Positions 9,628 through 35,117 of a stretch of 64,000 nt of DNA are shown here, piece by piece. The stretch comes from a virus: positions 96,001 to 160,000 of IMG/VR virus record IMGVR_UViG_3300045912_000789; one strand, 5' to 3'. The number at the start of each line of letters is the position of its first letter. Positions within the stretch are counted from its first letter, which is position 1. The position numbers were made by a program, and so were the translations under genes. The notes under the pieces were generated by a model. The model saw only the letters and a list, made by a program, of their open reading frames with translations, was not told where the DNA came from and ran no database searches.

Positions 9628-9629
9628 GG

Positions 9630-11585: not shown

Positions 11586-12326
11586 ATGGCAGCCAAGTAC
11601 GCATCGGGCAGCAGCACGTTCGGCAAGCTCCTCTCGGACCCGCACTTCTGGGCGCCGGCCGTCGCGATGGGAGCCGGAGTCGCGGTGACCGGCGCGGCCG
11701 GGGCCGTCCAGAAGCTCGTCGACGCCAGGCAGCAGGCGCGGTCGTTCAAGGAGATGCTGGAGCTGCATCCGCAGCTCAAGACCCGGGATCAGGCGTTCGT
11801 GAAGCGCATCTACACGAGCCTCCACAACGTCAACCCGATGATGGCCCGCGACCCGATGGTCGCCGGAGCCTGGACCGACACGATCATCGAGAGCGGCGGG
11901 CTCGATCAGGGCGCCGCCGCTCGTGCGCTCCTCGAAGGCGTGAAGGACTTGGCGCAGATCCGGTCCTCGATCTCGCAGGCGAAGCAGCGCGAGACCAGCG
12001 CCCCGAAGGCCATCGGCGCCGGCGTCAGCCGGATGGTCGAGCACGGCTTCGCGCGAGGGAAGGAGCTGGAGCGCGAGCACGGCGATCTCGCCGCGGCCCA
12101 CAAGCAGATCAAGGACATCCAGGAGGCGGGCATCCAGGAGCGGGCCCACCGACGAATCGAGGGCCTGACCCGCGCCTACACCGACGCCGCCAGCCGCATG
12201 GAGAAGCTGGTGCAGGGCGGGCACGTGACGCCGCAGCGCGTCGACCAGCTCATGGGCGCCGTGATCAAGAAGCACAGTTCCGCGACGACTCCCGGACAGA
12301 AGCTCATCGCGGCCTGCCGAGGCTGA
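11586..12326 (+). CDS. Putative virion protein with N-terminal hydrophobic helix
   Basis: RBS GAGGAG; AKYAS; APAVAMGAGVAVTGAAGAV. Confidence 0.65.
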   Translation: MAAKYASGSSTFGKLLSDPHFWAPAVAMGAGVAVTGAAGAVQKLVDARQQARSFKEMLELHPQLKTRDQAFVKRIYTSLHNVNPMMARDPMVAGAWTDTIIESGGLDQGAAARALLEGVKDLAQIRSSISQAKQRETSAPKAIGAGVSRMVEHGFARGKELEREHGDLAAAHKQIKDIQEAGIQERAHRRIEGLTRAYTDAASRMEKLVQGGHVTPQRVDQLMGAVIKKHSSATTPGQKLIAACRG

Positions 12327-14107
12327 TGCACACGAAGCGCGCATACTTCGCCGGGGAGCACGACGGAGAACCCCTCGTCCAGATCGTGCGCCCCGGCGAG
12401 CAGGTCAAGACGGCGTCCTTCATGATGCCGTCCGTGCAGTCGTTCATCGATCGGCTGACACCAGATCCCCGCTACACGTACGTCCTCGTCAACGCGATGG
12501 GGTACAGCGAGTTCTACGGCTCGAACTCCAACCGCGACTGGTACGGCCACAACCAGCACCTCGACTTCAACGGGCTGCTGCACTCGCCGCCGGACTTCGG
12601 CAAGGACTACGAGACCGACAAGATGCAGGGCCTGGCGTGGCCCTACGGCTTCCCCAGCTACTACGGCGCGACCGTCTACGCCCACCACAAGAACACCGAT
12701 CCGCAGCAGCTCGGGTTCGGAGACGTGATCTACGTCGCCCCGAATCCGATCATGAAGCGCATCGAGCTGGTCGAGCGCGTGTTCAACGAGGAGGCCCAGA
12801 AGAAGGGGCACACCTCGATCCTGGAACGAATCGCCGCCGGAGAGCGGGTCGACGTCTCGATGGGCTGCAAGGTGCCCTTCGACTTCTGTTCGATCTGCAC
12901 CGACTGGGCACTCGTCAAGAAGGCCTGGAAGACCTTCAATCCCGACGAGCATCGCCACCCCGGCATCGCGATCCTGCACTTCCACAAGACGGTCCAGCCC
13001 ATCCGGGGGCTCGCGATTACCCGCAAGGACTACTGCGAGCACATGCTCCAGATCCCCGGGAAGATCCTACCCGACGGCCGCAAGGTCTTCGTCTACAACG
13101 ACTTCCCCCGCTTCTTCGACATCAGCTTCGTGCTCGTCGGTGCAGATCGCACTGCGCGTGTGATGTGGCACCTCGGGTCGACGAAGCCGACGGAGGGGAC
13201 GACGGCGGGTCCGTGGGCCAAGCGCGAGAACAGTATCGTGCGGCTGCTGGAGAACCTCCTCAACAAGACATCGGCGATCAACATCGCCTCGATGGAGAAG
13301 GAGATCCCCGACGGTTTCGCCCAAGCGGTGAAGCACGACAGCGACACCGCGCCCGACATCAGCGGGACCCTGACGGTGGTCCTGGACGGAGCCGAGGACC
13401 GGAAGCTGATGGCGAAGAAGATCCTCACGGCGCTCGCCGTGTTGGGCATCGTGCCGTCCCCGAGGGAGTTCCAGACCCTCGCCCTCACCCACGTGCCGGG
13501 CGGTGACCTGATCAAGAAGGCGCTCGACGAGAAGGGGGTGGTCTTCGACACCTCGGTCGGCGGGATCGACGACACCTTCAGCGTCAGCGAGAAGCTCTAC
13601 GACGCCAAGCTCACGCAGGCGTTCGCCCCGCTGATGTCCGAGCGGTCGAGCTTCGACCCCTTCCTGACCGAGCGCCTGACCAGCTTCGAGCCGAAGACGG
13701 CGTCCGCACCTGCGATGCCGATCCGCACGGAACTCCTCGACAAGCTGGCGTCCCAGTACAACGGCTACCGGATCTCTACGCTGGAGAACGCCGGGGATCT
13801 CTTCCCGAAGAGCGCCGAGTTCCTGGGTGCCCAGACGGTCGCCAAGATGGGCGGGAAGGGGATCGGCCTGGCCGCTCTTCTCCTCGGTCTGGGGCCCGTG
13901 ATATCTTTGCTTTCGTCGCACCTGCGTAGCAGGCGTGAAGAAGGGCAGCAGATCGGTACCATGGCTTCGTTCGTCGCCGACAATCCGAGCTTCGTGACCA
14001 TCACGACGATCGGCGCCGGTCTGCGAGCCGCCATGGCCATCGACAAGGCCGGAGGCCTGGTCCAAGCTGCGCGCTCTGTCGTCACGGCTGCACGAGGGGT
14101 GCTCTGA
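12326..14107 (+). CDS. Prohead (capsid maturation) protease with Zn-finger insertion and C-terminal extension
   Basis: VYAHH, RIAAGERVDVSMGCKVPFDFCSIC and FFDISFVLVGADRTARV match the HK97/herpes-type protease pattern (H...SxG...xSxVxxxAxxxA). Lies upstream of the scaffold and capsid genes. Confidence 0.75.
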   Translation: MHTKRAYFAGEHDGEPLVQIVRPGEQVKTASFMMPSVQSFIDRLTPDPRYTYVLVNAMGYSEFYGSNSNRDWYGHNQHLDFNGLLHSPPDFGKDYETDKMQGLAWPYGFPSYYGATVYAHHKNTDPQQLGFGDVIYVAPNPIMKRIELVERVFNEEAQKKGHTSILERIAAGERVDVSMGCKVPFDFCSICTDWALVKKAWKTFNPDEHRHPGIAILHFHKTVQPIRGLAITRKDYCEHMLQIPGKILPDGRKVFVYNDFPRFFDISFVLVGADRTARVMWHLGSTKPTEGTTAGPWAKRENSIVRLLENLLNKTSAINIASMEKEIPDGFAQAVKHDSDTAPDISGTLTVVLDGAEDRKLMAKKILTALAVLGIVPSPREFQTLALTHVPGGDLIKKALDEKGVVFDTSVGGIDDTFSVSEKLYDAKLTQAFAPLMSERSSFDPFLTERLTSFEPKTASAPAMPIRTELLDKLASQYNGYRISTLENAGDLFPKSAEFLGAQTVAKMGGKGIGLAALLLGLGPVISLLSSHLRSRREEGQQIGTMASFVADNPSFVTITTIGAGLRAAMAIDKAGGLVQAARSVVTAARGVL

Positions 14108-14169
14108 TCCGCTGAGGTAGCTCCGGGCAACCGATGACGCAGGATCCCCGCCAAGAAGGAAGACACACC

Positions 14170-15258
14170 ATGGATCGCGAAACCGACATCTTCGACCTGG
14201 ACGTCCAGGGAACCTCCTCGGGCGACCTGGACGTCGATCTCGCCAACGCGGGCCACGTCCTCCAGAAGCTCGCCGAGGAGGAGGGCGTCGATCTGAACGC
14301 CCTCTCGGACGCGGACGTGGCGGACCTCGTCAGGGATCTTCTCCGCCCCGAGGGTCCGAACGCACAGACCACCCAGGAGACCCGGAAGGAAGCCAGCGCC
14401 ATGAGCACCGAGACCCAGCCCCTCCCCAACGAGCCGACCTACGCCGACGTGGCGGTCGAGCTGAGCAAGATCGCCGCCGCCGAGGGCATCGATCTCTCGA
14501 AGGTCTCCCGCGAGGAGTACCACGAGGCGTTCGCCAGCCTCGCCGAGCAGATGGCCGACCCCGAGTACGGCCAGGCGAAGGAGGCCGAGGAGGCGAAGCT
14601 CGCCGAGGCCTACGCGCAGGGCCAGCGCATGGCCGACGGCTTCCTCGATCGCCTCAAGGAGGCGGAGGACGAGGCCGAGAAGAAGGAGAAGGAGCGCAAG
14701 GAGAAGGAGGGCGAGGAGGGCAAGAAGGAGGCCGCCGGCGCCGTCCGTGCCGCGCTCCACGGCGCGAAGGACAAGGCGAAGAAGATGCTCGGCAAGGGCG
14801 TCGGGCACGCCGTCCGCGCGGGCGAGAAGGTCCGCGGCGCCGCGTCCTCGGCCGCCAAGGGCGAGCGCGAGTTCCACGAGCGCCTCGGCAAGGGCATGCC
14901 CGAGGGCCTGACCCACGCCGTCGCGAAGCGCATGGAGGGCCCCGCGAAGGATCGCCTCAGCCGTGCGCGCACCGCGGTCGGTCGCGGTGCCACGGCGGCC
15001 GGCGCGGCCGGTGCCGCGGGCGCGGCGGGCGCGGGCTACGCGGCGGGGCGCTCGAAGGAGAGCCTCGACGAGGCGGCGCTCCAGATCGCGGCCGAGATGG
15101 TCCGCGAGATGGGCTTCGATCCCTCCACCGGCGAGAAGCTCGCCGAGGCGCACGTCCCGGCCGAGCCCACCGCCGACGCGGACGGCTGGACCGAGGACGA
15201 GATCGCCGAGCGCGCGGTCGAGTTCATGAAGGAGGCGGGCTACCTCGCCCAGGAGTGA
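14170..15258 (+). CDS. Scaffold/internal head protein (acidic, helical, many KLA/KEA motifs)
   Basis: RBS AAGGA; located between the protease and the capsid gene. Confidence 0.6.
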   Translation: MDRETDIFDLDVQGTSSGDLDVDLANAGHVLQKLAEEEGVDLNALSDADVADLVRDLLRPEGPNAQTTQETRKEASAMSTETQPLPNEPTYADVAVELSKIAAAEGIDLSKVSREEYHEAFASLAEQMADPEYGQAKEAEEAKLAEAYAQGQRMADGFLDRLKEAEDEAEKKEKERKEKEGEEGKKEAAGAVRAALHGAKDKAKKMLGKGVGHAVRAGEKVRGAASSAAKGEREFHERLGKGMPEGLTHAVAKRMEGPAKDRLSRARTAVGRGATAAGAAGAAGAAGAGYAAGRSKESLDEAALQIAAEMVREMGFDPSTGEKLAEAHVPAEPTADADGWTEDEIAERAVEFMKEAGYLAQE

Positions 15259-15473
15259 TCGTGCGGCGCGAAGCTCATCCCGTCCTGATGCTGGAAACCT
15301 GGCTCAAGGAAGCCCAGGCAGCCCAGCGTCCGGCCGGGATGAGCGACGTCCGGCGGCGGACGCCGGTCGGGAAGGACCGCCAGGAGTACGCGCAGCCCAA
15401 CCCGCCCGCAGCCACCACTGCCCCCCACACGATCTCCAACCAGAAGGCTCTCAGCCCACCACCCGTGATGTGA
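15255..15473 (+). CDS. Small hypothetical protein
   Basis: GTGA overlap; fills the gap in the operon. Confidence 0.45.
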   Translation: MIVRREAHPVLMLETWLKEAQAAQRPAGMSDVRRRTPVGKDRQEYAQPNPPAATTAPHTISNQKALSPPPVM

Positions 15474-15480
15474 GGAAACC

Positions 15481-16650
15481 ATGACGACCCTCGCCGACAT
15501 CGTGAACAACGCGCTCTCCCAGTCGGAGAGCAGCCTCAAGCTCGCTTCGGCCCGTGACGCGGCGCCGGCCGTCGAGGGAAGCTCGCTGGCCTTCCTCGAC
15601 GCGGAGCTGGCCCTGCCGACCTCGACGCCGAAGCTCGCCTCGGACGACGAGGACGAGGACGATCGCCGTCCTCCGAAGAAGGACGAGAAGAAGGAGCCGG
15701 AGAAGAAGGCGTCCGTCCACGAGATCGTGGAAGACGCCGACTACGCGATGAAGCTCGCGGAGGCCCTGACGCTCGGCTCGAACATCGTCGCCGCGAAGCT
15801 CGCGTCCGACGGCACCGCGCTCGGCGCTCCCGGACCGCAGGTCCACCAGAGCGGGATGCAGCACGCCCCCACGATCCCGAAGGCGCACTCGAAGGTCAAG
15901 GAGACGATCTCGGGTCCGGCGACCAACGCCGGCCCGAACGGCCTGCCGACCTCGAAGGCGGACTTCACGTCGCCCAACGACCAGTCGGGCCGCGCGAAGA
16001 ACCACCCCGGCAAGACCGCCGCCGACGAGGCGTGGACGAAGTCGAAGACGGCCTCGATCCGCCTCATGCGCGCGAAGACGGCGCAGGCCGAGACGCTCAT
16101 CGAGCTGGGCCAGATCGCGGCGGCCGAGAAGCTGCTCGACGAGGTCCGGGCCGAGCAGGCGAAGCTCGCGCAGGACCCCTCCTCGCCCCCGCCGGTCATG
16201 CCGGCCCACAGCGAGTCGTTCAAGCTCGACACCGAGCCCGGCCCGTCCACGCACATCGGCGACAACGCCGCGCTGATCTCGCTGACGAAGAGCGAGGCGC
16301 GCGACAAGACCACGCGCGAGGCCTCGCAGTACATCAGCGAGCCGCCCAAGAAGGACAACGCGGTCGGCGCGCACATGCTGCGGACCGACGGTCAGAAGCT
16401 GAGCCACCTCGTGCTCCCCGGCGCGCGCAAGACCGCGTCGGCGCAGCCCGCGACGGCCCCGGCTCCCACGACCCCCACCACCGAGAAGAAGGCGTCGATG
16501 GACCCCGCGGTCGGCCGCGCCTACCTCTCGAAGCTCGTCAAGACCGCCGGCGATCCCGAGGCGATGCCCCAGGAGCGCGCGAAGGCCGCCGAGGCCATCA
16601 AGGCGATCAAGGCCAAGATCGGGGTGGACCCCGAGGCTCTCCTGAGCTGA
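15481..16650 (+). CDS. Scaffold/internal head protein, about 12 K-x-A motifs
   Basis: RBS GAGGA; low complexity; LKLAS, PKLAS, AKLAS, GKTAA, SKTAS, RKTAS, VKTAG. Confidence 0.65.
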   Translation: MTTLADIVNNALSQSESSLKLASARDAAPAVEGSSLAFLDAELALPTSTPKLASDDEDEDDRRPPKKDEKKEPEKKASVHEIVEDADYAMKLAEALTLGSNIVAAKLASDGTALGAPGPQVHQSGMQHAPTIPKAHSKVKETISGPATNAGPNGLPTSKADFTSPNDQSGRAKNHPGKTAADEAWTKSKTASIRLMRAKTAQAETLIELGQIAAAEKLLDEVRAEQAKLAQDPSSPPPVMPAHSESFKLDTEPGPSTHIGDNAALISLTKSEARDKTTREASQYISEPPKKDNAVGAHMLRTDGQKLSHLVLPGARKTASAQPATAPAPTTPTTEKKASMDPAVGRAYLSKLVKTAGDPEAMPQERAKAAEAIKAIKAKIGVDPEALLS

Positions 16651-16675
16651 ACTTCCCGGAAGGAGACAGACGAAC

Positions 16676-17080
16676 ATGAACAACATGGAGAAGGTGGCGC
16701 ACGAGGTGCCCGGCATCATGCAGGCGGCCTCGCAGCACCTCGTCAAGCTCGCCGGGAAGAACGTCGAGCTGGTGAAGCGAGCGGAGGCCGCGGAGCACGA
16801 GAACCGCGTCATGAAGCTCGCACGTCGGATGGAGATCCGCGGGCTGCACACGAACCTGTCCTTCGAGGACAAGATCGCGCAGCTCATGGAGGTCCCTCTC
16901 GACAAGCTCGCGACGATGGAGCAGGCGGTCGAGATGGCCGCCGGCGGCGTGCGGCTCGGGAAGGTCGCGGAGACCGACTCGGGCAGCAAGATCGCGTCGT
17001 CCGGCTACGAGCCGTCCGGGGGTTCCTCGGACGTCGACGAGCTGGAGGTCTTCATCGAGAGTCAGGCGGCTCTCACCTGA
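16676..17080 (+). CDS. Small coiled-coil scaffold-like protein
   Basis: RBS AAGGAG; seven K-x-A motifs in 134 aa. Confidence 0.65.
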   Translation: MNNMEKVAHEVPGIMQAASQHLVKLAGKNVELVKRAEAAEHENRVMKLARRMEIRGLHTNLSFEDKIAQLMEVPLDKLATMEQAVEMAAGGVRLGKVAETDSGSKIASSGYEPSGGSSDVDELEVFIESQAALT

Positions 17081-17130
17081 GCCGGGATGACCTGAACAGC
17101 AGAGAGACCGTCAACAAGGAGATCTGAATC

Positions 17131-17613: not shown

Positions 17614-17666
17614 TCCCCCTCATCGGACGCAGACCCTCAACGAGATCCACGAAGGAGAACCAGACC

Positions 17667-18782
17667 ATGGCCAGCCACAAGGAGATGCTCCTCAACCAGC
17701 TCTCCGACCCCGCCGCGAAGACCAAGATCGCAGCGAAGTTCGGAGGCTACATCCGCGACCGCCTGCGCGAGTCGTCGTTCGCCGAGCAGGTGCTCCCGCC
17801 GGAGAACGTCGACCGCTCGCAGTGCCAGGTCTCGACCCAGCACGACTCGCTCGTGAAGATCGAGTACCTGGAGCCGCGCTCGCGCGCGATGACGGTGACG
17901 TTCCGCGGCGAGCCCCGCGCGAACTTCATCCGCGGCGAGAAGGTCGAGGTGCCGTTCATCACCGTGATGAGCGACATGTTCCAGAAGCCGGAGCAGGAGT
18001 TCCTCGCGTACGCCTTCCCGATCGGGAAGGTGATCGAGCAGAACGCCGTGCGCGACCTCGGCGAGGTGCAGGACCGCGAGTTCCTCATCCACATCGAGGC
18101 CGCCATCCAGGCGCTCCAGACCGAGGCGAACGGCGGCACCCCGACGGCGCTCAACGCGACTACGGTCGGCGCCGGCTCGGTCGTCGAGTTCTCGGCGACG
18201 AAGGGCGAGCTGGCGCGCATCGCGGCCAGCAACACGGCGGTCTCGCTGCCGATCCAGCGGCCGGACATCATCCGGCTCATCAAGCTGCTCGACGGCAACC
18301 GCCTGGAGAGCAACCTCATCCTGATCACGACGGTCGACTGGGACGACATCCTGGCGTGGACCGTCGAGGACCAGGGCGACAAGCTCCAGTCCGAGACGGC
18401 GGTGCAGGGGTGGAAGTACAACCTCCTCCTCGGCAAGCGCTACGTCCGGACGATCAAGACGGACATCCTCCGTCCCGGCAACGTGTACTGCTTCACGAGC
18501 TCGGACTTCCTCGGGAAGTTCTACGTGCTCAACAACGTGAAGTTCTACATCGACAAGTACATCAACATGCTGAAGTTCGTCGCCTGGAAGGACATCGGCA
18601 TGTCGATCATCAACATCGCGTCGGTCCGCAAGCTGGAGCTGTACTCCGGCGACGCGAACCCGACGACGAACGCGGACGGCATCCTCGGCTCGGTCACCCC
18701 GGTGGCGGAGGAGGATCTCGGCCGGCCGAACAACCGGGCGGGCAACCGCCAGTTCTTCCCGCAGGTGGTCAGCATCGGCTGA
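17667..18782 (+). CDS. Major capsid protein (putative)
   Basis: RBS AAGGAG; 371 aa; very strong codon bias; follows protease, scaffold and decoration genes; followed by a hairpin. YIRDRLRESSFAEQVLPP resembles HK97-fold N-arm/E-loop entries. Confidence 0.7.
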   Translation: MASHKEMLLNQLSDPAAKTKIAAKFGGYIRDRLRESSFAEQVLPPENVDRSQCQVSTQHDSLVKIEYLEPRSRAMTVTFRGEPRANFIRGEKVEVPFITVMSDMFQKPEQEFLAYAFPIGKVIEQNAVRDLGEVQDREFLIHIEAAIQALQTEANGGTPTALNATTVGAGSVVEFSATKGELARIAASNTAVSLPIQRPDIIRLIKLLDGNRLESNLILITTVDWDDILAWTVEDQGDKLQSETAVQGWKYNLLLGKRYVRTIKTDILRPGNVYCFTSSDFLGKFYVLNNVKFYIDKYINMLKFVAWKDIGMSIINIASVRKLELYSGDANPTTNADGILGSVTPVAEEDLGRPNNRAGNRQFFPQVVSIG

Positions 18783-20751: not shown

Positions 20752-22506
20752 ATGAGCCACTACGCAGAACTGGACCAGGAGATCGTCGCTCTCGGAAACG
20801 GGGCGACTTCGGGCATCTCGCGCGCCGACGCGACGGTGTTCGTCCACGCGCTGCGCAAGCTCGCCGCGCAGGGCGCGCCGGCACCGGATGCCGACCTCGC
20901 CGAGCACGCGACCGAGGTCGCGATGGGCGAGGAGGCTTCGCCCGCCGAGGCCGCGATGCACACGCAGGCCGGGGTGCCGGACGAGAGCGGCCACCTCGAA
21001 GGCGAGTTCGCCGTCCCGCTCGACCAGGTCGTCATGACCCTCGCGCAGATCGTCTCGAACAGCATGCGGCAGCACACCGCGTACTCGTTCTACGGCGAGA
21101 TGATGCGAGATCTCGGGCGCGGCGAGCTGGCCGAGCTGTTCGACGAGCAGGGCAAGGACGAGATGAAGGAGATGAAGTACTTCCTTCGTCGGATGTCCGT
21201 GCTCCACCCGGGCGGCGTGCCGATCCCGGTGGCGCCGACGCCGGAGCCCAGCGCCGACGTCTCGGTCGCACTGCGCTACCTCATCGCCGGCGAGCAGCAG
21301 GCGATCGTCCTGTTCAAGACGCTGCACTCGATGCTCGGGGACAACCCGATGAAGTACACCATCGAGCAGACGATGACAGACGCCCAGGAGCACCTCGATC
21401 GTCTCTGGCAGTACATGCCGGCGACCGAGGCTCCGAAGCAGGCCGGCGCCAAGATCGCGAGCGTCATCACGCGCATGAAGCTCGCGGCGCGCACCGGGGC
21501 AGAGACCGCGCTCGGTCAGGCACTCCAGCAGGGCGTCGAGAAGCCCACGGCGAGCAAGCAGGCGTCGCCCCAGTGGCCCTCGCCGAGCCCCGGGGCGATC
21601 CCCGTGGGGCAGCCCGGCACTGAGCCGCTCAGCACGGTCATCGGTCGCGAGGCGCTGCTCCAGCAGGCGCAGCTCATGAACGAGAACCAGGACCTGCGTG
21701 CGCGCATGGACCAGGCCGCTCAGCAGCAGCTCATGGCGCAGCAGCAGCTCGAAAGCCTCGGCGCGGAGAACGAGAACCTCCAGATGCAGGCCATGCAGGC
21801 CAGCGATCAGGCGCAGATGGCGACCGAGCAGGCGCAGCTCTCCAGCGAGCAGGCGGCGGCGCAGGCGGACGCGAAGATGCGGCTCGCGATCCGCGTGCAG
21901 CAGCTCCGCCAGAACCTCGCCGACATCGTCTCGGCCGACCCCGTCCAGGAGGAGGGTGTCGGCTTCGGCGAGCAGGCCGGCCCCGGCAGCGTCGCGACGT
22001 CGTCGCAGCAGAACCAGATGGCCCAGCAGGCCGCCGCCATGGACCCCACCGGCGGCACCGGCGGAGCCCCCACCCAGGAGGCCGCCGAGGAACAGCAGCA
22101 GGCCGCCAACGCGCAGCAGGAGGCTCAGCAGCAGACCGCCCAGGCCCAGCAGAAGACCAAGGCGGACAGCTCGAAGCCGAAGGGCAAGGGCGGCACGACG
22201 GTCTCCGTGAAGACCTCGGGCATGCCCTCGCTCGTCAAGAAGCCGCTCGTCGAGGCGGGTCACGCGATCGGCGAGGGCATCGGGCAGCACCTCGAACAGG
22301 CCGGCAGCGACGCCATGCGCGGCGGGCTGAAGACGCTCAAGGAGCGCGTCCGCGCCTACGGCAAGGACCCGAAGGTCGTCGGCGGGGCTGCGCTCGCCGC
22401 CGGCGGCTACGTCGGCGCGAAGGCGCACGGCATCAAGAAGCAGCACGAGCGCGACCGAACCCAGAAGGACATCCTGAAGGCCGTCCAGTCGATGGCGAAC
22501 CGCTGA
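20752..22506 (+). CDS. Modular putative head protein: bacterioferritin-like four-helix bundle, Gln-rich coiled coil and Gly-zipper tail
   Basis: DEMKEMKYFLRRM...AGEQQAI...DAQEHLDRL aligns by eye with the Bfr helices. Confidence 0.65.
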   Translation: MSHYAELDQEIVALGNGATSGISRADATVFVHALRKLAAQGAPAPDADLAEHATEVAMGEEASPAEAAMHTQAGVPDESGHLEGEFAVPLDQVVMTLAQIVSNSMRQHTAYSFYGEMMRDLGRGELAELFDEQGKDEMKEMKYFLRRMSVLHPGGVPIPVAPTPEPSADVSVALRYLIAGEQQAIVLFKTLHSMLGDNPMKYTIEQTMTDAQEHLDRLWQYMPATEAPKQAGAKIASVITRMKLAARTGAETALGQALQQGVEKPTASKQASPQWPSPSPGAIPVGQPGTEPLSTVIGREALLQQAQLMNENQDLRARMDQAAQQQLMAQQQLESLGAENENLQMQAMQASDQAQMATEQAQLSSEQAAAQADAKMRLAIRVQQLRQNLADIVSADPVQEEGVGFGEQAGPGSVATSSQQNQMAQQAAAMDPTGGTGGAPTQEAAEEQQQAANAQQEAQQQTAQAQQKTKADSSKPKGKGGTTVSVKTSGMPSLVKKPLVEAGHAIGEGIGQHLEQAGSDAMRGGLKTLKERVRAYGKDPKVVGGAALAAGGYVGAKAHGIKKQHERDRTQKDILKAVQSMANR

Positions 22507-22517: not shown

Positions 22518-24329
22518 ATGAGCCACGTCAACGATCTGGAGGACTTCGTCAACGATCTCTCCGCCCCGGTGAAGATCGCGGAGACGGACCTCGACAACCT
22601 CAGCCTCCCCGAGCTGGAGGCCCTCATGGGTCTCGATCTCACGGAGGACAACGAGAAGGTCGCGTACCTCAACGCCTGCGTGAAGAGCGCGTACGGCGAC
22701 GACCGGTACGGGTCCTGGCTCGATCAGTTCGCCGGCTCGCCGCTGCACGCGAAGGCCCTCCAGCTCTGCGAGGAGGAGCTGGGTCTGGAGCAGGAGCGGC
22801 TCCAGCGTCGGATCGAGCGGCAGGAGCAGAACCAGGGCGACGACGACATCTGGACGCGGCAGGACATGCTGCGACTCCAGAAGGACATGCTCATGCTGGA
22901 GCTGCACAAGTCGAAGGCCGGTCCCGGAGGCGGCAAGGACCCGACGATGCAGCCCCAGGCCGGCGCGGGGCCCGCGGCCGAGGCGCCCCCGAAGCCGGGC
23001 AAGACCACCCCGCCCAAGGAGGGCAAGACCGCCTCGGACGTCCAGACGGTCGGCCAGATCAACAACGGAGACCCGGCCCAGCCGTCGTGGCCTCGCGCCT
23101 CGCTCGGCGTGGACGCGGCGGGTCGGCGGGCGACCCCCGAGGAGGAAGCCGCCCAGGGGCGCGCCGACACCCACGTGCAGCACCGTGATCCCGTCACGAA
23201 GTCGGCGGGCGCGGCGACGCAGCTCGGCGAGGCCGTGATGAAGCGCATCGATCGCGCGCCGGGCGCCGTCCAGCGCGGGGTCGGGATGCTCCACAACGTC
23301 GGCGCTCGGCTGGGCGCGAAGTCCACCGAGAGCGCGGTCGGGCGCGGCATCATGGCGGCCGGCGGGGCTGCGGCGGGAGCAGGTGCGCTCGGTGCCGGGG
23401 CACTCGCCTCGCGCAAGAAGGAGTCCAGCGATCTCACAACTTCGGAGCGCGAGGACCTCAAGAAGAAGCAGTTCGCGCTGCCGGAGAAGAGGAAGTACCC
23501 GATCCCCGACGAGGCCCATGCCCGCAACGCGCTCGCTCGCGCGGCACAGTTCGCTTCGCCCGAGGAGCAGAAGCGCATCCGGGCGGCCGTCGATCGGAAG
23601 TTCCCCGGCATCCAGCTCACCAGCGCCAGCAAGCCGGCGAAGCCCACGGTCGGTCTGCACCACGTGCCCGACAGCAAGAAGGAGTCCTCGCTCCTCGCGG
23701 CCGTGGGGGGCCACCGCGGCCTCCCTTTCGGCGATGAGGGCAAGATCGCGAGCGTCATGAGCACGCTCGCGATGGATGCCGGGTCGCAGGCGAAGCACCT
23801 CGCGCGCATGGGGTCCTACGCCCGCAACGTGCAGAAGGTCCCGCACGCCGTGGTCGCCGCTCGCAACGCGGAGATGCGTGCGTTCACCCCGAAGGCGCTC
23901 CCGACGGCCGCCGCGGCAGCCACCCACACCCCGCCCCCGGTCGCAGTGACGGTGGCCAAGAAGAAGACCCCCACGCAGGCGATCGACCCGATGGCGCTGT
24001 CGCGTCATCTCGCCCAGACCAACCCCCAGCAGGCCATCCAGGCCGGGCGGCAGTTCGGGGCGCCGGTGGTCGGCAACGCGGCGGTGCTCGATCAGCTCTC
24101 GCAGATGAGTTTCGGCAAGCTCAGCGTGAGCAAGAGCTGGATCACTCGCGTCATCCGGCGGGCGAAGGCCACCAAGCTGCGGGTTCGGGACTCCGCTCAG
24201 AAGCATGAGGCAGCGTGGTGGGATCACCGCGTGAAGGGGACCGAACTCACGGACGCGGCCAAGAAGCGCGGCTTGGCTGCTGACGAGCTAGCCGACAAGT
24301 TCAAGAGCATGAAGGGAGCCATGAGCTGA
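22518..24329 (+). CDS. Modular putative head protein with DUF6582-like domain
   Basis: LTTSEREDLKKKQFALPEKRKYPIPDEAHARNALAR; many K-x-A/S motifs. Confidence 0.65.
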   Translation: MSHVNDLEDFVNDLSAPVKIAETDLDNLSLPELEALMGLDLTEDNEKVAYLNACVKSAYGDDRYGSWLDQFAGSPLHAKALQLCEEELGLEQERLQRRIERQEQNQGDDDIWTRQDMLRLQKDMLMLELHKSKAGPGGGKDPTMQPQAGAGPAAEAPPKPGKTTPPKEGKTASDVQTVGQINNGDPAQPSWPRASLGVDAAGRRATPEEEAAQGRADTHVQHRDPVTKSAGAATQLGEAVMKRIDRAPGAVQRGVGMLHNVGARLGAKSTESAVGRGIMAAGGAAAGAGALGAGALASRKKESSDLTTSEREDLKKKQFALPEKRKYPIPDEAHARNALARAAQFASPEEQKRIRAAVDRKFPGIQLTSASKPAKPTVGLHHVPDSKKESSLLAAVGGHRGLPFGDEGKIASVMSTLAMDAGSQAKHLARMGSYARNVQKVPHAVVAARNAEMRAFTPKALPTAAAAATHTPPPVAVTVAKKKTPTQAIDPMALSRHLAQTNPQQAIQAGRQFGAPVVGNAAVLDQLSQMSFGKLSVSKSWITRVIRRAKATKLRVRDSAQKHEAAWWDHRVKGTELTDAAKKRGLAADELADKFKSMKGAMS

Positions 24330-27220: not shown

Positions 27221-30200
27221 ATGGCCAGCCCCACCATCGAGAGGCCCAGCGTCCAGGTCATCCAGGAGTTCCGGACCGTCAGCCCGACCATCCTCGTCCC
27301 CACGATGCCCGCGTGCGTCATGGGTCCGTGCGTCCAGGTCGTGGAGGCGGTGCAGGACGACGGGAGCCTGAACCCCGAGGCCCGCATCGCGCTCCCCGCG
27401 CGCATCCCCTTCGCCTTCGTGTCGTCGCCGTTCGAGTACGCGGCCATCGGCACCGACGCGCTGGAGGTCAGCGTCAACAACGCCGCGGCGGAGCAGGTCG
27501 TGTTCCCGACCGGCCCGAACCTCACGGTCGATCAGGTCGCCGACGCGATCAACGAGGAGGCCATCCCCGGCCTCCTCGCGGTGGTGGAGACGAGCGGCAC
27601 GCAGAAGCGCGTCGTCATCTACACGACCGTGACCGGCGAGAACGCCTCGCTGGAGATCGGCGCGGGCACCCACGCCGACGTCATCGCGGCCTTCGGGATC
27701 ACCCGTGGGTACCGGAACGTCGGTGCGTCCGGCTACAACAACTACTGGGCGCTACGCCTGGGCAAGCCGGACTACCCCGATCCGCGCGACATCATCGACG
27801 AGGTCACGATCGACTTCGACACCGTCCGCCTGTTCATCAACGACGGGTCGGGCACGGTGCGCGAGGCGCTGCGCACCGAGTCGTTCCTCGACGGCGCGAC
27901 GGCGGCGGTGACCGTCCAGGACGACGGCGACGGGGACAACCTCTCGCCGTACCTGAACTTCGCCGGCGCGGTCTTCCACGACAAGCCGGCGCAGCTCGTC
28001 GGCACGGTCGACTGGACGACCCTCACCTACCCCGGCGACTTCGGCGTGCTCACGCTGGAGATCATCATCAACGGCGTGACCGTGGTGGTGACCTTCGCCA
28101 ACCCGGCCGACGCCACCGCGGCGGCGCTGGCCATCAACACCGCGCTCGGCGTCAACGGCACCTGCGTGCTGAACGGCTCGAACCAGCCGGTCATCACGTC
28201 GGCGATCACCGGCGCCGGTTCGTCGGTCGAGATCGGCGCCGCCGGCACCATCAACGAGGCGACCATCGGCCTGGCGGTGGGCTCGTACGCGGCGGGCCGC
28301 CCGAGCCGTGCCCGTGCGCAGGGCATCACCGACCTCACGGCGGTGGTCTACGCGTCGGACGTGCAGGGCCGCGTGCTCCGCATGAGCGTCGACGGCGAGC
28401 AGTTCCAGCAGCTCGTGATGCCGGTGACCGTCGTCTCCGCGGCGACGCTCGTCTCGGCGATCAACGCGCTCTGGGGCAACATCGCGAGCCTCAACGGCGC
28501 GAACCGGCTTGTGCTCCGCAGCCTGGCCACCTTCGGTGGTCGGGAGTCGGAGATCCGGGTCGACAAGACCGCGTCGGACGCCACGCTCCTCACGGCCATC
28601 GGCCTCACCGGCGTCAGCGCGCCGTTCCAGACCGTGAGCGTCGTCTACGGCAACGCTTTCTCGCCGCTCGTCGGCGACGAGGTGTGGGTCAACGGCGTGC
28701 GCGTCGGCGAGATCACGGAGGTGCCGGCGACCCCGGACAACCGCCTCCGCCTCAGCGCCGAGCAGCTCCTGACCTACACCGGGTCGTCCTGGATGATCGT
28801 GGCGAAGGGCCTCGACAACAGCGCGGCCACGGCGACGCGGCCCTCCAGCGATCTCCGGGTCGACGTGACCTCGGGGGCGGTGCGGACGAAGCACAACCTC
28901 TTCCGCGAGTCGAACGGCACGCCGACGAACGTCGGGCCGCTCGCGACGTACCTGGCGTACAACGCGCTCCGCAAGGACGTGTCGCCCGCCGGCACGGACT
29001 TCAACCTCCTCCGCTTCGGCACCACGACCGATCTGGAGGCCGCGCTCGCACCGCTCGACACGCAGAACCCGCTCGGGCTCGGGATGTACTTCGCCCTCCT
29101 CAACGCCCCCGGCGTCGAGGTGACGGGCCTGGGCGTCGACGAGACCAGCGACACCGAGCCCGAGGGCTCGCTGGCGAGCTACGTGCGCGCCTTCGAGTAC
29201 CTGGAGTCGAAGGACGTCTACGGCATCGCGCCGCTCACGCACGCGAACGCCGTGGGCCAGGTCGGCCAGGTGCACGTCGACGAGCTGTCCAAGCCGGAGA
29301 ACGGCCTGGAGCGCATCGTCATCCTCAACCCCTCGCGCCCGACGCGGAAGGCGGACACCCTCGTGGCCTCGGCCGCGACGGCGAACGTCGCCGGCCCGCC
29401 GACGAACGTCGTGAACACCGGCATCGCCGATCTCCAGGCGAAGCTGGCGGCGCTCGGCAAGCCCGGGCCCACCTACGTCGAGGCGGACGGCGTCTACCTC
29501 AAGTTCGAGGACGACGAGAACCTCTACCTCATCGAGTCGGTGAGCGGTCCGAACGCGACCGTCAACGACGGCCCGCTGAGCGCGAGCAACACGCTGTTCA
29601 AGGACGGCGGGGGCTCGCCCCTCTTCACCACGGCGATCGTCGATCGCCCGGTGTCGGTCTTCATCCTCGGCGGCAGCCTCGGCAGCCGCACGGACGAGGC
29701 CGACGCCTATGCCGCCATCGCCCGCGGCTACCTCGACCGCCGCGTCATCTGCACGGCGCCCGACACCGCGAAGGCGTCGATCGACGGGCTGGAGACCCAG
29801 CTCGCCGGCTACTACCTCGCGGCGGCGCTCGCCGGCAAGATGTCGGCGGTCTCGCCGAGCCAGCCGCTCACGAACGAGACGCTCGCGGGCTTCACCGGGG
29901 TCATCGGGTCGCAGGACCGCTACTCCGAGATGCAGCTCAAGATCCTCTCGGGCGGTGGGCTCTGGGTCTTCTACCAGGAGGCCGACGGGCAGCCGGTGAA
30001 GACCCGCCACCAGCTCACGACCGACATGACGTCGATCGAGAAGCGAGAGACCAGCATCACGCGGGCGCTCGACTTCACGGCGAAGTTCATCCGGGCGGGG
30101 CTCAAGAACTTCATCGGGCGCTTCAACATCACCCAGAACGTCCAGGACGCGATCTCGATCGTCATCGACGGCCTCGCCGCGTTCCTGATCCGTCAGGGCG

Positions 30201-30325
30201 TGCTGAAGAGCTTCGAGGTCAACGCCATCCGGCAGTCGGCCTCCGCGCCCGACACGCTGGAGATCGACGTCACCGTCGGGGTGCTCTACCCGCTCAACTA
30301 CATCAAGATCACCCTGGTGATCTGA
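27221..30325 (+). CDS. Tail sheath protein (1034 aa, with insertion domains)
   Basis: N-terminal RPSVQVIQE. C-terminal HQLTTD...ETSITRALDFTAK...IDVTVGVLYPLNYIKITLVI is typical of contractile sheaths. Confidence 0.85.
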   Translation: MASPTIERPSVQVIQEFRTVSPTILVPTMPACVMGPCVQVVEAVQDDGSLNPEARIALPARIPFAFVSSPFEYAAIGTDALEVSVNNAAAEQVVFPTGPNLTVDQVADAINEEAIPGLLAVVETSGTQKRVVIYTTVTGENASLEIGAGTHADVIAAFGITRGYRNVGASGYNNYWALRLGKPDYPDPRDIIDEVTIDFDTVRLFINDGSGTVREALRTESFLDGATAAVTVQDDGDGDNLSPYLNFAGAVFHDKPAQLVGTVDWTTLTYPGDFGVLTLEIIINGVTVVVTFANPADATAAALAINTALGVNGTCVLNGSNQPVITSAITGAGSSVEIGAAGTINEATIGLAVGSYAAGRPSRARAQGITDLTAVVYASDVQGRVLRMSVDGEQFQQLVMPVTVVSAATLVSAINALWGNIASLNGANRLVLRSLATFGGRESEIRVDKTASDATLLTAIGLTGVSAPFQTVSVVYGNAFSPLVGDEVWVNGVRVGEITEVPATPDNRLRLSAEQLLTYTGSSWMIVAKGLDNSAATATRPSSDLRVDVTSGAVRTKHNLFRESNGTPTNVGPLATYLAYNALRKDVSPAGTDFNLLRFGTTTDLEAALAPLDTQNPLGLGMYFALLNAPGVEVTGLGVDETSDTEPEGSLASYVRAFEYLESKDVYGIAPLTHANAVGQVGQVHVDELSKPENGLERIVILNPSRPTRKADTLVASAATANVAGPPTNVVNTGIADLQAKLAALGKPGPTYVEADGVYLKFEDDENLYLIESVSGPNATVNDGPLSASNTLFKDGGGSPLFTTAIVDRPVSVFILGGSLGSRTDEADAYAAIARGYLDRRVICTAPDTAKASIDGLETQLAGYYLAAALAGKMSAVSPSQPLTNETLAGFTGVIGSQDRYSEMQLKILSGGGLWVFYQEADGQPVKTRHQLTTDMTSIEKRETSITRALDFTAKFIRAGLKNFIGRFNITQNVQDAISIVIDGLAAFLIRQGVLKSFEVNAIRQSASAPDTLEIDVTVGVLYPLNYIKITLVI

Positions 30326-30333
30326 GGTACGCC

Positions 30334-30633
30334 ATGCCCGAGTTCCGCTACGACAACGTCGCGCGCGCCTTCGACGAGGAGCTGGAGAAGGAGATGCTCC
30401 AGCACTCGTCAGAGAAGGCGGCGAAGCACCAGCCGGAGCCCGAGTCGGGCATCCAGCGCATCGCCAAGGGCAAGACCCCGCTCGACGAGGTCAAGGCCAT
30501 CATCGACGCCTCGCGCTCCAAGAGCGCCGCGCAAGAGGTCGCGGAGCATCGGGTTCGCGGGAAGCTCGCCGCTCTCCGCGACGGGCCGCGGGAGCAGGTC
30601 GAGCAGTTCATCAACCTCGCGAAGAACGGCTGA
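30334..30633 (+). CDS. Small K-x-A-motif protein
   Basis: MPEFRYDNVARAFDEELEKEM...SKSAA...GKLAA. Confidence 0.6.
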   Translation: MPEFRYDNVARAFDEELEKEMLQHSSEKAAKHQPEPESGIQRIAKGKTPLDEVKAIIDASRSKSAAQEVAEHRVRGKLAALRDGPREQVEQFINLAKNG

Positions 30634-30658
30634 CAGGTAGCCGGAACAGGAGATCAGC

Positions 30659-31366
30659 ATGGCCAGCTACGACAACTGGAAGCCGTACGAGGGCTACGTC
30701 CAGAGCGGGGGCGAAGGCCCCGGGATGGTGGACGGGCAGTTCCTCAGCGGCGCGTTCATGGGCATCTTCGCCGGTCCGCCGCGTCTCGCGTCGGTCGGCG
30801 GCGCGCTCACGCTCGGGGCGGCGCTCTCCTCGCCGGCGACGGCGAGCCAGATCGTCTACCCGGTCGGCATCACGCAGAACATGAACCTCAGCCACAACCG
30901 GCAGTTCAGCCGGATCTTCGAGCTGGGGTCGGAGCGCAGCTACTTCATCTCGGGCCGCACCATCGGTCAGCTCGGGCTGTCGCGCGTGCTCTACCACGGG
31001 CCGAGCATCCTCCGGACGCTCTACGCCTACTACCAGGACCTCGTGCCGAACACGCTGGTGCCGAGCGTGTTCCCGAACGTCGGCGCCGGCGCGATGCCGA
31101 ACCCGCACGACGTCGTGATCCCGCCGGGCTACGAGAACTTCTACGCCAACCTGGCGTCGGACCTGTTCTCGCAGCCGATCGGTCTGCTCGTGGTGCTCAA
31201 GGACTCGAACCTCGACACCTACGGCGCGTTCTACCTGGAGTCCTGCTACATCCCGAACCACACGTTCGCGACGGATGCGCAGGGCGTGATCATCCAGGAG
31301 TCGGTCGCGGTGCAGTTCGAGCTGCTGATCCCCATCGCGACGCGGAGCATCGAGCTGATCACCTGA
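30659..31366 (+). CDS. Tail tube protein (putative)
   Basis: Follows the sheath gene; VGITQNMNLSHNRQFSRIFELGS, YLESCYI and IIQESVAVQFE are tube-like. Confidence 0.7.
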   Translation: MASYDNWKPYEGYVQSGGEGPGMVDGQFLSGAFMGIFAGPPRLASVGGALTLGAALSSPATASQIVYPVGITQNMNLSHNRQFSRIFELGSERSYFISGRTIGQLGLSRVLYHGPSILRTLYAYYQDLVPNTLVPSVFPNVGAGAMPNPHDVVIPPGYENFYANLASDLFSQPIGLLVVLKDSNLDTYGAFYLESCYIPNHTFATDAQGVIIQESVAVQFELLIPIATRSIELIT

Positions 31367-35050: not shown

Positions 35051-35117
35051 GTGTTCTCCTCGGACGATCGTTGGTGATCGCCTCTTCACATGCTCATAGG
35101 GGCAAACGAAGGGCGGT

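What the first reader, a model, noticed from the sequence alone, without database searches (positions are those of the whole stretch)
21030..21420. Bacterioferritin-like domain embedded in a putative virion protein, with a remodelled ferroxidase site
Seen: LAQIVSNSMRQHTAY...DEMKEMKYFLRRM...LIAGEQQAI...DAQEHLDRL. Known: E. coli Bfr ligands are E18, E51, H54, E94, E127 and H130, with heme ligand M52 (DEMKH). By-eye alignment: E51, M52, E94 and H130 are kept, while E18>S, H54>E and E127>A are changed. The domain lies between RKLA and PKQA/AKIA motifs and is followed by a Gln-rich coiled coil. Inference: a packaged ferritin-fold module that may bind metal or heme, protect DNA, or poison host Bfr/encapsulin iron stores as a dominant-negative subunit.
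Basis: partly seen in the sequence, partly recalled or inferred. Interest (0 to 1): 0.7.

Follow-up and report, generated by a model that had tools for sequence, protein, structure and literature searches.

The report
Ferritin-like domain in phage head-module protein
A 584-residue protein encoded between the capsid and tail-sheath genes of an uncultured 172-kb phage contains a genuine ferritin-type four-helix domain whose iron site was rebuilt once in this phage's lineage but is intact in most relatives, making it a candidate metal-binding passenger of the virus head, although packaging has not been shown.

Summary
Observation confirmed. ORF 20752-22506 (+) carries a ferritin/bacterioferritin-fold domain at residues 77-228: Pfam Ferritin is above its gathering score, the AlphaFold2 (AF2) bundle has pLDDT >90, and VIA-align gives Z 17-19 to Bfr, mini-Bfr and Dps. 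An exhaustive profile search finds 405 representative clusters, all long proteins with the domain near the N-terminus and none from a cultured phage. Of 187 members, 98 keep the full di-iron set EEHEEH and all keep the Tyr25 equivalent. The window's pattern marks one clade (support 100/99), with coordinated conserved core changes including a new His108, so this is remodelling and not decay. Heme binding is not supported (Met in 10/187). The domain is acidic, which argues against Dps-like DNA binding. The gene slot is conserved in seven related phages. K-x-A/S motifs flank the domain across the family and are about 9-fold enriched (as K-x-A-S) in head-module proteins. The major capsid protein (MCP) has exactly one, at residue 20. 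A homolog of the phage G gp19 maturation protease lies upstream. Packaging and cleavage are inferred, not shown. This scan found the same family before on other DNA.

The parts
20752..22506 (+). Gene for the 584-aa ferritin-domain protein
   Evidence: ORF with GC3 0.94. AAGGA lies 7 nt upstream of the ATG. 99-100% identical protein in public data and the own genome.
20752..20865 (+). N-terminal leader, residues 1-38, ending in the conserved K36-L-A38 (20857-20865); candidate propeptide or targeting segment
   Evidence: K36/A38 kept in 50/57. K-x-[A/S] within 45 aa upstream of the domain in 146/159 family members against 58 expected. Helical in the AF2 model.
20980..21435 (+). Ferritin-like four-helix-bundle domain, residues 77-228
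   Evidence: Pfam above GA; AF2; Foldseek; VIA Z 17-19 spanning model residues 77-228; profile vs PDB finds DpsL, mini-Bfr and Bfr.
21061..21084 (+). Helix A site residues: S104 (Bfr E18 position, ligand lost), H108 (clade-specific, candidate new ligand), Y111 (Bfr Y25 equivalent)
   Evidence: S/N/G at 104 in 26/26 of the clade against E in the canonical class. H108 in 24/26 against M/Q elsewhere. Tyr invariant in 187/187.
21160..21171 (+). Helix B motif E137-M138-K139-E140 (Bfr E51-M52-K53-H54)
   Evidence: E137 26/26 in the clade. E140 26/26 in the clade, H in 98 canonical and D in 36. Met138 not conserved.
21292..21294 (+). E181 (Bfr E94), retained ligand
   Evidence: 56/57; 26/26 in the clade.
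21382..21393 (+). Helix D A211-Q-E-H214 (Bfr E127-x-x-H130): bridging Glu lost, His kept
   Evidence: A211 in 24/26 of the clade against E in 98/98 canonical. H214 26/26.
21451..21462 (+). K234-I-A-S237, conserved motif just after the domain; candidate protease site
   Evidence: K234/A236 in 51/57, an island of conservation in a variable linker. Downstream K-x-[A/S] in 139/186 against 90 expected.
21556..21567 (+). K269-Q-A-S272, second K-x-A-S motif
   Evidence: Kept in 38/57. The protein has 2 K-x-A-S against 0.26 expected.
21637..22161 (+). Gln/Ala-rich acidic region, residues 296-470, containing the conserved block 368-412 (21853-21987)
   Evidence: 24% Q, 20% A, pI 4.2, no clear heptad. 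Block AKMRL..R.QQ.RQ.LAD..S.DPV.EEG.GFG is >=90% conserved at many positions. Coiled-coil Pfam hits in a few relatives.
22210..22218 (+). K487-T-S489 within the 'SVKTS' motif
   Evidence: Kept in 27 of the 36 homologs that have this region.
22219..22503 (+). Basic C-terminal region, residues 490-584, with the Gly/Ala-rich segment VVGGAALAAGGYVGA
   Evidence: pI 10.06. Poorly conserved and absent in shorter homologs.
22518..24329 (+). Adjacent 603-aa gene whose modules are fused to the ferritin protein in relatives
   Evidence: DUF6582/phrog_16160 module. 18 family proteins carry its modules in the same polypeptide as the ferritin domain.
17667..18782 (+). Major capsid protein (371 aa from the likely true start), with a single K-I-A-A at residues 20-23 (17724-17735)
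   Evidence: phrog_2522; Arash MCP hit. Exactly one K-x-[A/S] within the MCP coding sequence in each of 8 phages, always at residues 20-23.
12326..14107 (+). 593-aa protein; N-terminal ~285 aa is the candidate prohead maturation protease (invariant H120/H121, S178 in VDVSMG)
   Evidence: Homologous to phage G gp19 (E 5e-9), Arash gp222 and Vibrio D-phages. gp19 is annotated as head maturation protease (PMC12484599) and lies between portal and MCP. Atlas leads to Peptidase_S77/S78. The AF2 model was too poor to test.
14134..17080 (+). Three K-x-A/S-dense genes (374, 389 and 134 aa, plus a 72-aa ORF) upstream of the MCP; scaffold/core candidates
   Evidence: K-x-[A/S] 11, 16 and 8 against 6.3, 9.0 and 1.8 expected. 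K-x-A-S 7 against 0.43 in the 389-aa protein.
27221..31366 (+). Tail sheath (1034 aa) and downstream tube-like gene
   Evidence: phrog_2839/279 tail sheath. Homologs of Arash gp236/gp237, phage G and Myrna sheath.
4713..6548 (+). Terminase large subunit
   Evidence: phrog_675, E 4.7e-44.

Best explanation
The gene encodes a modular pro-protein of the phage's late head-to-tail operon. Its parts are a ~38-residue leader, an acidic ferritin-like four-helix bundle of the intrasubunit di-iron (Bfr/DpsL/mini-Bfr) type, and a long Gln-rich, then basic, tail. Shown: the fold; the family (at least 405 representative clusters, all long phage-type proteins with the domain near the N-terminus); the conserved gene slot between MCP and sheath; the single-origin remodelling of the metal site in the window's clade; and the family-wide conservation of K-x-A/S motifs bracketing the domain. 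Inferred: the protein is built into the prohead and cut by the gp19-type maturation protease at K-x-A/S sites (K36, K234, K269, K487), leaving a ~22-kDa acidic ferritin-like domain as a head-internal passenger. This resembles T4 internal proteins or phiKZ-type inner-head proteins, and is functionally analogous to ferritin cargo of encapsulins. In most relatives the domain should be a working di-iron oxidase: full EEHEEH ligand set, invariant Tyr, and an extra invariant His and Trp in the canonical class. In the window's clade two ligands (E18 and the bridging E127) were lost and a new core His appeared one turn away. The likely remaining site is H108/E137/E140/E181/H214, binding one metal or a differently bridged pair, so classical ferroxidase turnover is doubtful but metal binding probably persists.
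For: Fold. Site mapping and classes. Single clade with support 100/99. Coordinated, conserved clade-specific core substitutions (S104, H108, Q133, E140, F188, A211), with E137/E181/H214 26/26. Family size and architecture. Synteny in 7 related viral contigs, including canonical-site phages L008 and L009. Tight gene spacing, an SD sequence and no + strand terminators. K-x-A-S 19 against 2.2 expected in head-module proteins with flat controls. Conserved K36/K234 islands. Family-wide flanking motifs 146/159 against 58, and 139/186 against 90. MCP with exactly one K-[I/L]-A-A at residue 20 in 8 phages, and a K-E-A near the N-terminus of the Arash MCP. Protease homolog of phage G gp19. Fusion of neighbouring-gene modules to the ferritin protein in 18 relatives. 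Precedents for ferritin-fold proteins in virion preparations: phage G gp346 (PMC12484599; also rank 11 in the BFVD fold search) and Sajous1 gp217 (PMC10892097).
Against: There is no proteomic or structural evidence that this protein is in any virion, and no cultured phage carries it. The number of K-x-[A/S] sites in this protein is at chance (6 against 6.2); only their position and conservation speak for function. Cleavage specificity K-x-A/S is inferred from statistics alone. The protease domain could not be confirmed by Pfam/PHROGs or by fold (pLDDT 49), and phage G's MCP has no N-terminal K-x-A. BLAST found no leader shared with other head proteins. The gene lies among neck-like genes, not next to the scaffold genes, and is absent from the distant relative Arash.
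Confidence: 0.5

Rival explanations
1. A late-expressed but non-packaged cytoplasmic enzyme. The ferritin-like domain would manage iron or peroxide in the infected cell during virion assembly, and its position in the structural operon would only provide late timing.
For: Most relatives have a complete di-iron site and an invariant Tyr, as expected of a working enzyme wherever it acts. Free-standing phage Dps/ferritin genes are usually read this way (PMC6669764). There is no direct virion evidence.
Against: This does not explain the conserved N-terminal leader and the K-x-A/S motifs bracketing the domain across the family. It also does not explain the long non-enzymatic tails, the module exchange with the neighbouring head-module gene, or the strictly conserved slot inside the head-to-tail block.
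Confidence: 0.2
2. A purely structural use of the four-helix bundle, as a core, scaffold or inner-body building block, with the metal site vestigial, at least in the window's clade.
For: Two of six ligands are lost in the window's clade. A second class (KE[A/M/F]E[D/G]H) and several singletons have also lost ligands, and L010's copy has a helix-B deletion. The long Gln-rich helical tail resembles scaffold-like proteins.
Against: The remaining ligands E137, E140, E181 and H214 are 26/26 in the clade, and a new His108 is fixed next to the lost ligand, which points to a maintained site. 98/187 members keep all six ligands and 187/187 keep the Tyr. Real scaffold candidates with dense cleavage motifs lie upstream of the MCP.
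Confidence: 0.13
3. A neck- or tail-associated iron carrier ('Ferrojan horse'). The ferritin-like protein would sit on the tail or neck and present iron to host uptake receptors, as proposed for Vi01-like phage Sajous1 gp217.
For: The gene lies between homologs of Arash gp233 and gp234, neck-like genes just upstream of the sheath. Sajous1 gp217 (ferritin by Phyre2) lies in an operon with a tail completion protein and was seen by MS (PMC10892097).
Against: K-x-A-S motifs are characteristic of the head-module proteins here, and the sheath carries only one. The ferritin protein shares these motifs and exchanges modules with other K-x-A/S-bearing proteins. The Sajous1 authors themselves found no dependence on the iron-uptake pathway.
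Confidence: 0.07
4. One reading: a heme-binding bacterioferritin mimic, or a dominant-negative subunit that poisons host Bfr or encapsulin iron stores after injection.
For: The window keeps Met138 at the Bfr heme-ligand position, and the fold superposes on Bfr at rmsd ~2.0-2.8 A.
Against: Met is present in only 10/187 members and is replaced by I or L in close relatives. Identity to Bfr is ~17-20%. The host is unknown, and there is no test of hetero-oligomerisation.
Confidence: 0.03

Closest known systems
Bacterioferritin (E. coli Bfr 1bcf/4cvs; Blastochloris viridis 4am2)
   Same: Four-helix bundle with a long B-C loop; intrasubunit di-iron site positions E, ExxH, E, ExxH; Tyr25 equivalent. 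VIA Z ~18, rmsd 2.2-2.8 A over ~140 residues. Best sequence hit in the PDB.
   Different: Only ~17-20% identity. The window has 4 of 6 ligands. The heme Met is not conserved in the family. The domain is embedded in a 584-aa protein with a 76-residue N-terminal and a 356-residue C-terminal extension that could not fit a closed 24-mer unless cleaved. There is no clear E helix.
Mini-bacterioferritin (Ca. Methanoperedens, 9qq4/9qq5; PMC13168243) and the 139-aa ferritin-like diiron-carboxylate protein 2qqy
   Same: Compact ~135-aa bundle without an E helix. Top structural matches (Z 18.4-19.0, rmsd 2.0-2.2 A). Profile hit E 1.4e-3.
   Different: mBfr is a free-standing 12-mer with coproheme and a complete di-iron centre. 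Here the domain is part of a phage polyprotein-like precursor, the site is remodelled, and the oligomeric state is unknown.
Dps-like proteins DpsL (Sulfolobus 2clb; Bacteroides thioferritin 2vzb; P. aeruginosa PA4880 8w1d)
   Same: Bfr-type intrasubunit site in a Dps-sized protein. Best profile-vs-PDB hit (2clb, E 1.3e-3) and top Foldseek hit (2vzb).
   Different: Cellular, free-standing dodecamers with an intact site.
Ferritin-like cargo of encapsulins (Flp, EncFtn, double-ferritin-fold ferroxidases)
   Same: The concept is a ferritin-like enzyme addressed to the inside of an HK97-fold shell. A recent paper explicitly asks whether phage procapsids could co-assemble such cargo (PMC13669383).
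   Different: No encapsulin-type C-terminal loading peptide. The shell here is a real phage capsid with terminase, protease and tail genes. The domain is a full four-helix bundle, not the two-helix EncFtn.
Protease-processed internal head proteins of large myoviruses (T4 IPs/Alt with capsid-targeting sequence; phiKZ/SPN3US inner-head and ejection proteins; PMC5694885)
   Same: Encoded in or near the head module; N-terminal propeptide ending in a short protease motif; the motif recurs in many head proteins and in the MCP N-terminus; paralogous, modular proteins.
   Different: The motif here would be K-x-A/S, not T4's (L/I)-x-E or the giant phages' A/S/G-x-E. The protease is of the phage G gp19 type. 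Neither cleavage nor packaging has been measured. None of the known internal proteins has a ferritin fold.
Ferritin-fold proteins reported from virion preparations: Bacillus phage G gp346 and Vi01-like phage Sajous1 gp217
   Same: Phage-encoded ferritin-like proteins detected by particle MS. gp346 is a weak structural match (BFVD rank 11).
   Different: Short, free-standing proteins outside this family. No tblastn similarity.

Membership tests
Ferritin-like superfamily (Pfam PF00210 Ferritin) | Score above the curated Pfam gathering threshold | tested here: met
   28.4 bits against 24.5, residues 97-218. 56/57 distant relatives also hit, best E 9e-19.
Ferritin-like superfamily (Pfam PF00210 Ferritin) | Up-down-down-up four-helix bundle with a long crossover loop between helices B and C | tested here: met
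   AF2 helices 90-121, 124-151, 170-195, 200-220 with an 18-residue loop, pLDDT 91-98. VIA Z 17.3-19.0 to ferritins.
Ferritin-like superfamily (Pfam PF00210 Ferritin) | Complete di-iron ligand set E / ExxH / E / ExxH | tested here: not met
   The window has S104, E137-x-x-E140, E181, A211-x-x-H214, i.e. 4 of 6 positions with metal-capable side chains and 3 identical to Bfr. The set is met in 98/187 relatives.
Bacterioferritin proper | Conserved Met52 heme ligand at the dimer interface | tested here: not met
   Met138 is present in the window, but Met occurs in only 10/187 family members, and I or L replaces it in close relatives.
Bacterioferritin proper | 24-mer cage with a C-terminal E helix | not testable with these tools
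   Only single chains can be folded. The extensions of 76 and 356 residues argue against a closed cage for the uncleaved protein (inference).
Dps (DNA-binding mini-ferritin) | Basic tail or surface for DNA binding | tested here: not met
   The domain between the K-x-A sites has pI 4.67. Only the poorly conserved C-terminal 95 residues are basic.
Dps (DNA-binding mini-ferritin) | Intersubunit ferroxidase site | tested here: inconclusive
   The conserved ligands align with the intrasubunit Bfr/DpsL site. Oligomer interfaces could not be modelled.
Encapsulin cargo (Flp/EncFtn) | C-terminal cargo-loading peptide and an adjacent encapsulin shell gene without portal, terminase or tail | tested here: not met
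   The C-terminus is variable or absent in relatives. The shell gene is a phage MCP in a genome with terminase, sheath and tube.
Prohead-protease-processed internal head proteins | Encoded within the head/structural module, with conserved synteny | tested here: met
   Same slot between MCP and sheath in 7 related contigs.
Prohead-protease-processed internal head proteins | Propeptide ending in the phage's protease motif, which also occurs in the MCP and other head proteins | tested here: inconclusive
   K-x-A-S is 19 against 2.2 expected in the head module. Conserved K36 and K234 sites. Single K-I-A-A at MCP residue 20. Cleavage itself is not demonstrated.
Prohead-protease-processed internal head proteins | Presence in purified virions or proheads and mapped cleavage termini | not testable with these tools
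   No cultured member of the family.

The most novel reading that the evidence does not exclude
A large lineage of uncultured ~160-200-kb myoviruses uses its capsid like an encapsulin. A ferritin-like di-iron enzyme is addressed to the prohead as a pro-protein, released inside by a maturation protease with K-x-A/S specificity, and carried, and possibly injected, with the DNA. In the window's clade the enzyme's centre has been re-engineered into a new 2-His/3-carboxylate site with a different chemistry.
Probability: 0.3. Interest if true: 0.8.

Novelty: new variant of a known kind. Interest (0 to 1): 0.58.

Why it matters
Encapsulins, which are HK97-fold shells that enclose ferritin-like enzymes, are thought to be related to phage capsids. 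A recent paper asks whether phage procapsids might themselves co-assemble enzymatic cargo (PMC13669383). A widespread phage family (at least 405 representative clusters) places a mostly intact ferritin-type di-iron domain, bracketed by the putative head-protease motif, in the head-to-tail module, and this would make that question directly testable. The window's clade adds a natural experiment in active-site remodelling: two ligands lost, one His gained, all fixed. It also points to an undescribed prohead-protease specificity (K-x-A/S). None of this is in cultured phages, so it is invisible to current phage proteomics.

Tried and rejected

(2) megablast and tblastn against 50,697 deposited phages found no homolog of the ferritin protein, whether queried with the window's copy or with two distant canonical members. 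The only match was a DUF6582-like stretch in Streptomyces phages.

(3) PHROGs has no family for this protein.

(4) Protease confirmation by structure failed. AF2 on a 7-sequence alignment gave pLDDT 49, so I did not fold-search it. Pfam and PHROGs gave nothing, and the Atlas gave only 0.89-0.90 leads to Peptidase_S77/S78.

(5) A simple count of K-x-[A/S] in the ferritin protein is at chance. I therefore rejected density as evidence for this protein and used positional conservation instead.

(6) A heptad periodicity test of the Gln-rich region was negative or unclear.

(7) BLAST of the ferritin protein against the phage's own proteome found no shared leader or paralog.

(8) I first mis-assigned E127 to D210. 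This was corrected to A211.

(9) Model coordinates are not exposed to scripts, so ligand geometry, including H108, could not be measured.

(10) The phage G MCP shows no N-terminal K-x-A, so the motif cannot be generalised to all gp19-type proteases.

(11) Arash's 116-protein 'structural' proteome includes ribonucleotide reductases and was judged too permissive to use.
Full report
WHAT IS THERE. The finding lies in ORF 20752..22506 (+), 584 aa. The window is part of a 171,909-bp IMG/VR virus record rated complete by CheckV. The record has 64-71% G+C and about 174 ORFs with a strong GC3 signal. Their coordinates correspond to residues ~94-223.

THE DOMAIN IS A REAL FERRITIN FOLD.
- Pfam Ferritin (PF00210) scores 28.4 bits, above its 24.5-bit gathering cut-off, at residues 97-218.
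- phmmer against PDB sequences puts a bacterioferritin first (4am2, E 0.018).
- A family profile finds DpsL 2clb, mini-bacterioferritin 9qq4 and Bfr 4am2 at E 1e-3 to 4e-3.
- An AlphaFold2 model of residues 1-260, built on 57 homologs, has mean pLDDT 86. Blocks of 91-98 cover four long helices (90-121, 124-151, 170-195, 200-220) joined by a long B-C loop.
- Foldseek returns bacterioferritins, thioferritin, mini-Bfr and Dps at probability 1.00.
- VIA-align gives Z 17.3-19.0, rmsd 2.0-2.8 A over 132-144 residues for the top rows, spanning model residues 77-228. That is above the ~13 level that generic helical bundles can reach.

THE SITE.

| E. coli Bfr | Window |
|---|---|
| E18 | S104 |
| E51 | E137 |
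| M52 | M138 |
| H54 | E140 |
| E94 | E181 |
| E127 | A211 |
| H130 | H214 |
| Y25 | Y111 |

THE FAMILY. A word-based search found 58 homologs, many on 150-200-kb contigs. An exhaustive profile search with a domain-only alignment found 405 representative clusters at E <= 1e-3 and 138 at E <= 1e-30. In nearly all of them the domain starts 25-90 residues from the N-terminus of a protein of roughly 400-1,340 aa. Pfam sees Ferritin in 56/57 and Rubrerythrin in 36/57 distant members, and no other recurrent domain. No deposited phage genome has a homolog.

Among 187 members the six ligand positions read as follows:

| Pattern | Members |
|---|---|
| EEHEEH (canonical) | 98 |
| EEDEEH | 34 |
| [S/N/G]EEE[A/S/G]H (window's class) | 26 |
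| KE[A/M/F]E[D/G]H | about 16 |
| Degenerate one-offs | a few |

The Tyr25 equivalent is invariant (187/187). The heme-Met position is Met in only 10/187.

REMODELLING, NOT DECAY. A maximum-likelihood tree of the domain places all 24 window-class sequences of the first set in one clade (support 100/99). The canonical class forms another clade (100/99), and EEDEEH sequences form the backbone. Within the window's clade, E137, E140, E181 and H214 are 26/26. A set of core positions changed together and then stayed fixed:
- E104 > S/N/G
- M/Q108 > H (24/26)
- H133 > Q (H in 98/98 canonical)
- H/D140 > E
- W188 > F (W in 98/98 canonical)
- E211 > A

His108 lies one helical turn after the lost E18-equivalent and three residues before the invariant Tyr. 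I therefore propose, as inference, a new site made of H108, E137, E140, E181 and H214. Loss of the bridging E127-equivalent makes classical di-iron ferroxidase turnover doubtful.

CONTEXT. The gene sits in a + strand block:
- 593-aa gene (12326)
- three K-x-A/S-dense genes (14134-17080)
- MCP (phrog_2522; homolog of the Arash MCP)
- three small genes
- ferritin gene
- 603-aa gene
- two conserved genes
- tail sheath (phrog_2839/279) and tube

The terminase large subunit is at 4713-6548. Gaps around the ferritin gene are 9-13 nt, an AAGGA lies 7 nt before the ATG, and no + strand terminator-like site occurs between 16.5 and 27.5 kb. The same order, with the ferritin gene in the same slot, is found in all seven related viral contigs that have flanks, including two ~195-kb phages whose copies have the canonical site. 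In the only distant cultured relative, Salmonella phage Arash, the homologs of the genes at 19737 and 24329 are adjacent. The 20259/ferritin/603-aa trio is therefore a lineage-specific insertion.

Eighteen family members carry, in the same polypeptide as the ferritin domain, modules that in this phage belong to the neighbouring 603-aa gene. The DUF6582-like module is in 11, the C-terminal module in 6, and a third module in 1. The two genes are thus a modular set.

THE K-x-A/S MOTIFS. Earlier first-reader notes on this genome proposed a K-x-A/S protease code. I tested it.
- K-x-[A/S] is modestly enriched in the head module (80 against 54 expected), but in the ferritin protein its count is at chance (6 against 6.2).
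- The sharper form K-x-A-S is 19 against 2.2 expected in head-module proteins and 17 against 10.8 elsewhere. Three control patterns are flat.
- In the ferritin protein, four sites are islands of conservation in variable linkers: K36-L-A (50/57), K234-I-A (51/57), K269-Q-A (38/57) and SVK487TS (27 of the 36 with that region).
- Across the wide family, a K-x-[A/S] lies within 45 residues upstream of the domain in 146/159 (58 expected) and within 40 residues downstream in 139/186 (90 expected). K-x-A-S totals 213 against 51 expected.
- Independently, the MCP, whose true start is M124 of the called ORF (window 17667), has exactly one K-x-[A/S] within its 371 residues in each of eight phages. It is always K-[I/L]-A-A at residues 20-23. 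The Arash MCP has a K-E-A near its N-terminus, but phage G's MCP does not.

The 593-aa protein's conserved N-terminal domain (invariant H120/H121 and S178) is homologous to phage G gp19 (E 5e-9), Arash gp222 and Vibrio D-phage proteins. gp19 is annotated as the head maturation protease (PMC12484599) and lies between portal and MCP. I could not confirm the protease fold because the model had pLDDT 49.

MECHANISM.
- Shown: fold, family, site evolution, synteny, motif statistics.
- Inferred: the protein enters the prohead as a precursor and is cut at the K-x-A/S sites by the gp19-type protease. The acidic ~22-kDa ferritin-like domain (pI 4.7) stays in the head as a passenger. This is comparable to T4 internal proteins and phiKZ/SPN3US inner-head proteins with their protease-removed propeptides (PMC5694885), and functionally analogous to encapsulin ferritin cargo (PMC13669383).

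The few, boundary-placed sites contrast with the dense sites of the scaffold-like proteins upstream of the MCP. This suggests release of folded domains as opposed to degradation. Precedents for ferritin-fold proteins in particle preparations exist: phage G gp346 and Sajous1 gp217.

Heme binding is not supported, since the Met is not conserved. DNA protection by the domain is unlikely because it is acidic. Dominant-negative poisoning of host Bfr has no evidence. The coiled coil is not verified.

RIVALS. These are a non-packaged late cytoplasmic iron/ROS enzyme; a purely structural bundle; and a neck/tail 'Ferrojan horse' iron carrier. They are weighed in the structured fields.

STATUS. This scan has already met the family on other DNA, for example a 556-aa homolog in a 177-kb phage and a report of about 190 clusters. 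Those notes agree with this reading, but they are not independent evidence. The literature I could search does not describe the family.

Noticed in passing
window 51719-52124 (+): A tmRNA gene (tag ANDNSYAPAALAA) is encoded inside this complete phage genome. It could hint at the host or at translational takeover.
   Followed up: no
window 17081-17666: There is a ~590-nt stretch between the 134-aa gene and the true MCP start. The Arg-rich in-frame upstream extension of the MCP ORF still aligns at the protein level in close relatives, and an alternative ORF lies at 17131-17613. This could be a conserved leader RNA or an overlooked gene.
   Followed up: partly
window 1101-3185 (+), and G000 78596-80206 (+): These two proteins outside the head block are the other strong K-x-A-S carriers (6 against 0.25 and 4 against 0.22 expected). 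The 694-aa one, next to the terminase, may be the portal or another packaged protein. PHROGs finds nothing.
   Followed up: partly
window 22518-24329 (+): The 603-aa neighbour has a DUF6582/phrog_16160 module (residues ~305-365) framed by two KKESS motifs, and a C-terminal module. Both occur fused to ferritin domains in other phages.
   Followed up: partly
family-wide (P0059-P0188): A second, independent remodelled class KE[A/M/F]E[D/G]H (~16 representatives) exists. The canonical class has an extra invariant His (window position 133) and Trp (position 188), suggesting a third metal or electron-transfer element.
   Followed up: partly
L010:10052-10390: The ferritin-like domain of this 35-kb contig's phage is degenerate, with the helix-B region deleted and ligands lost. 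The domain can therefore decay in some lineages.
   Followed up: no
window 24329-25240 (+): A well-conserved 303-aa protein (54-74% identity in relatives; homolog of Arash gp234; phrog_2806) has a CxxC...CxxC pair, probably a zinc-binding neck or tail-completion protein.
   Followed up: no
window 35090-37702 (+): In this 870-aa protein, residues 275-412 match a domain shared by minor head proteins, DarB-like antirestriction proteins and endolysins. It is a possible virion-borne enzyme.
   Followed up: no
window 7687-9774 (-) and 49904-51658 (+): A topoisomerase II large subunit and a thymidylate-synthase-like protein are encoded near the structural block.
   Followed up: no
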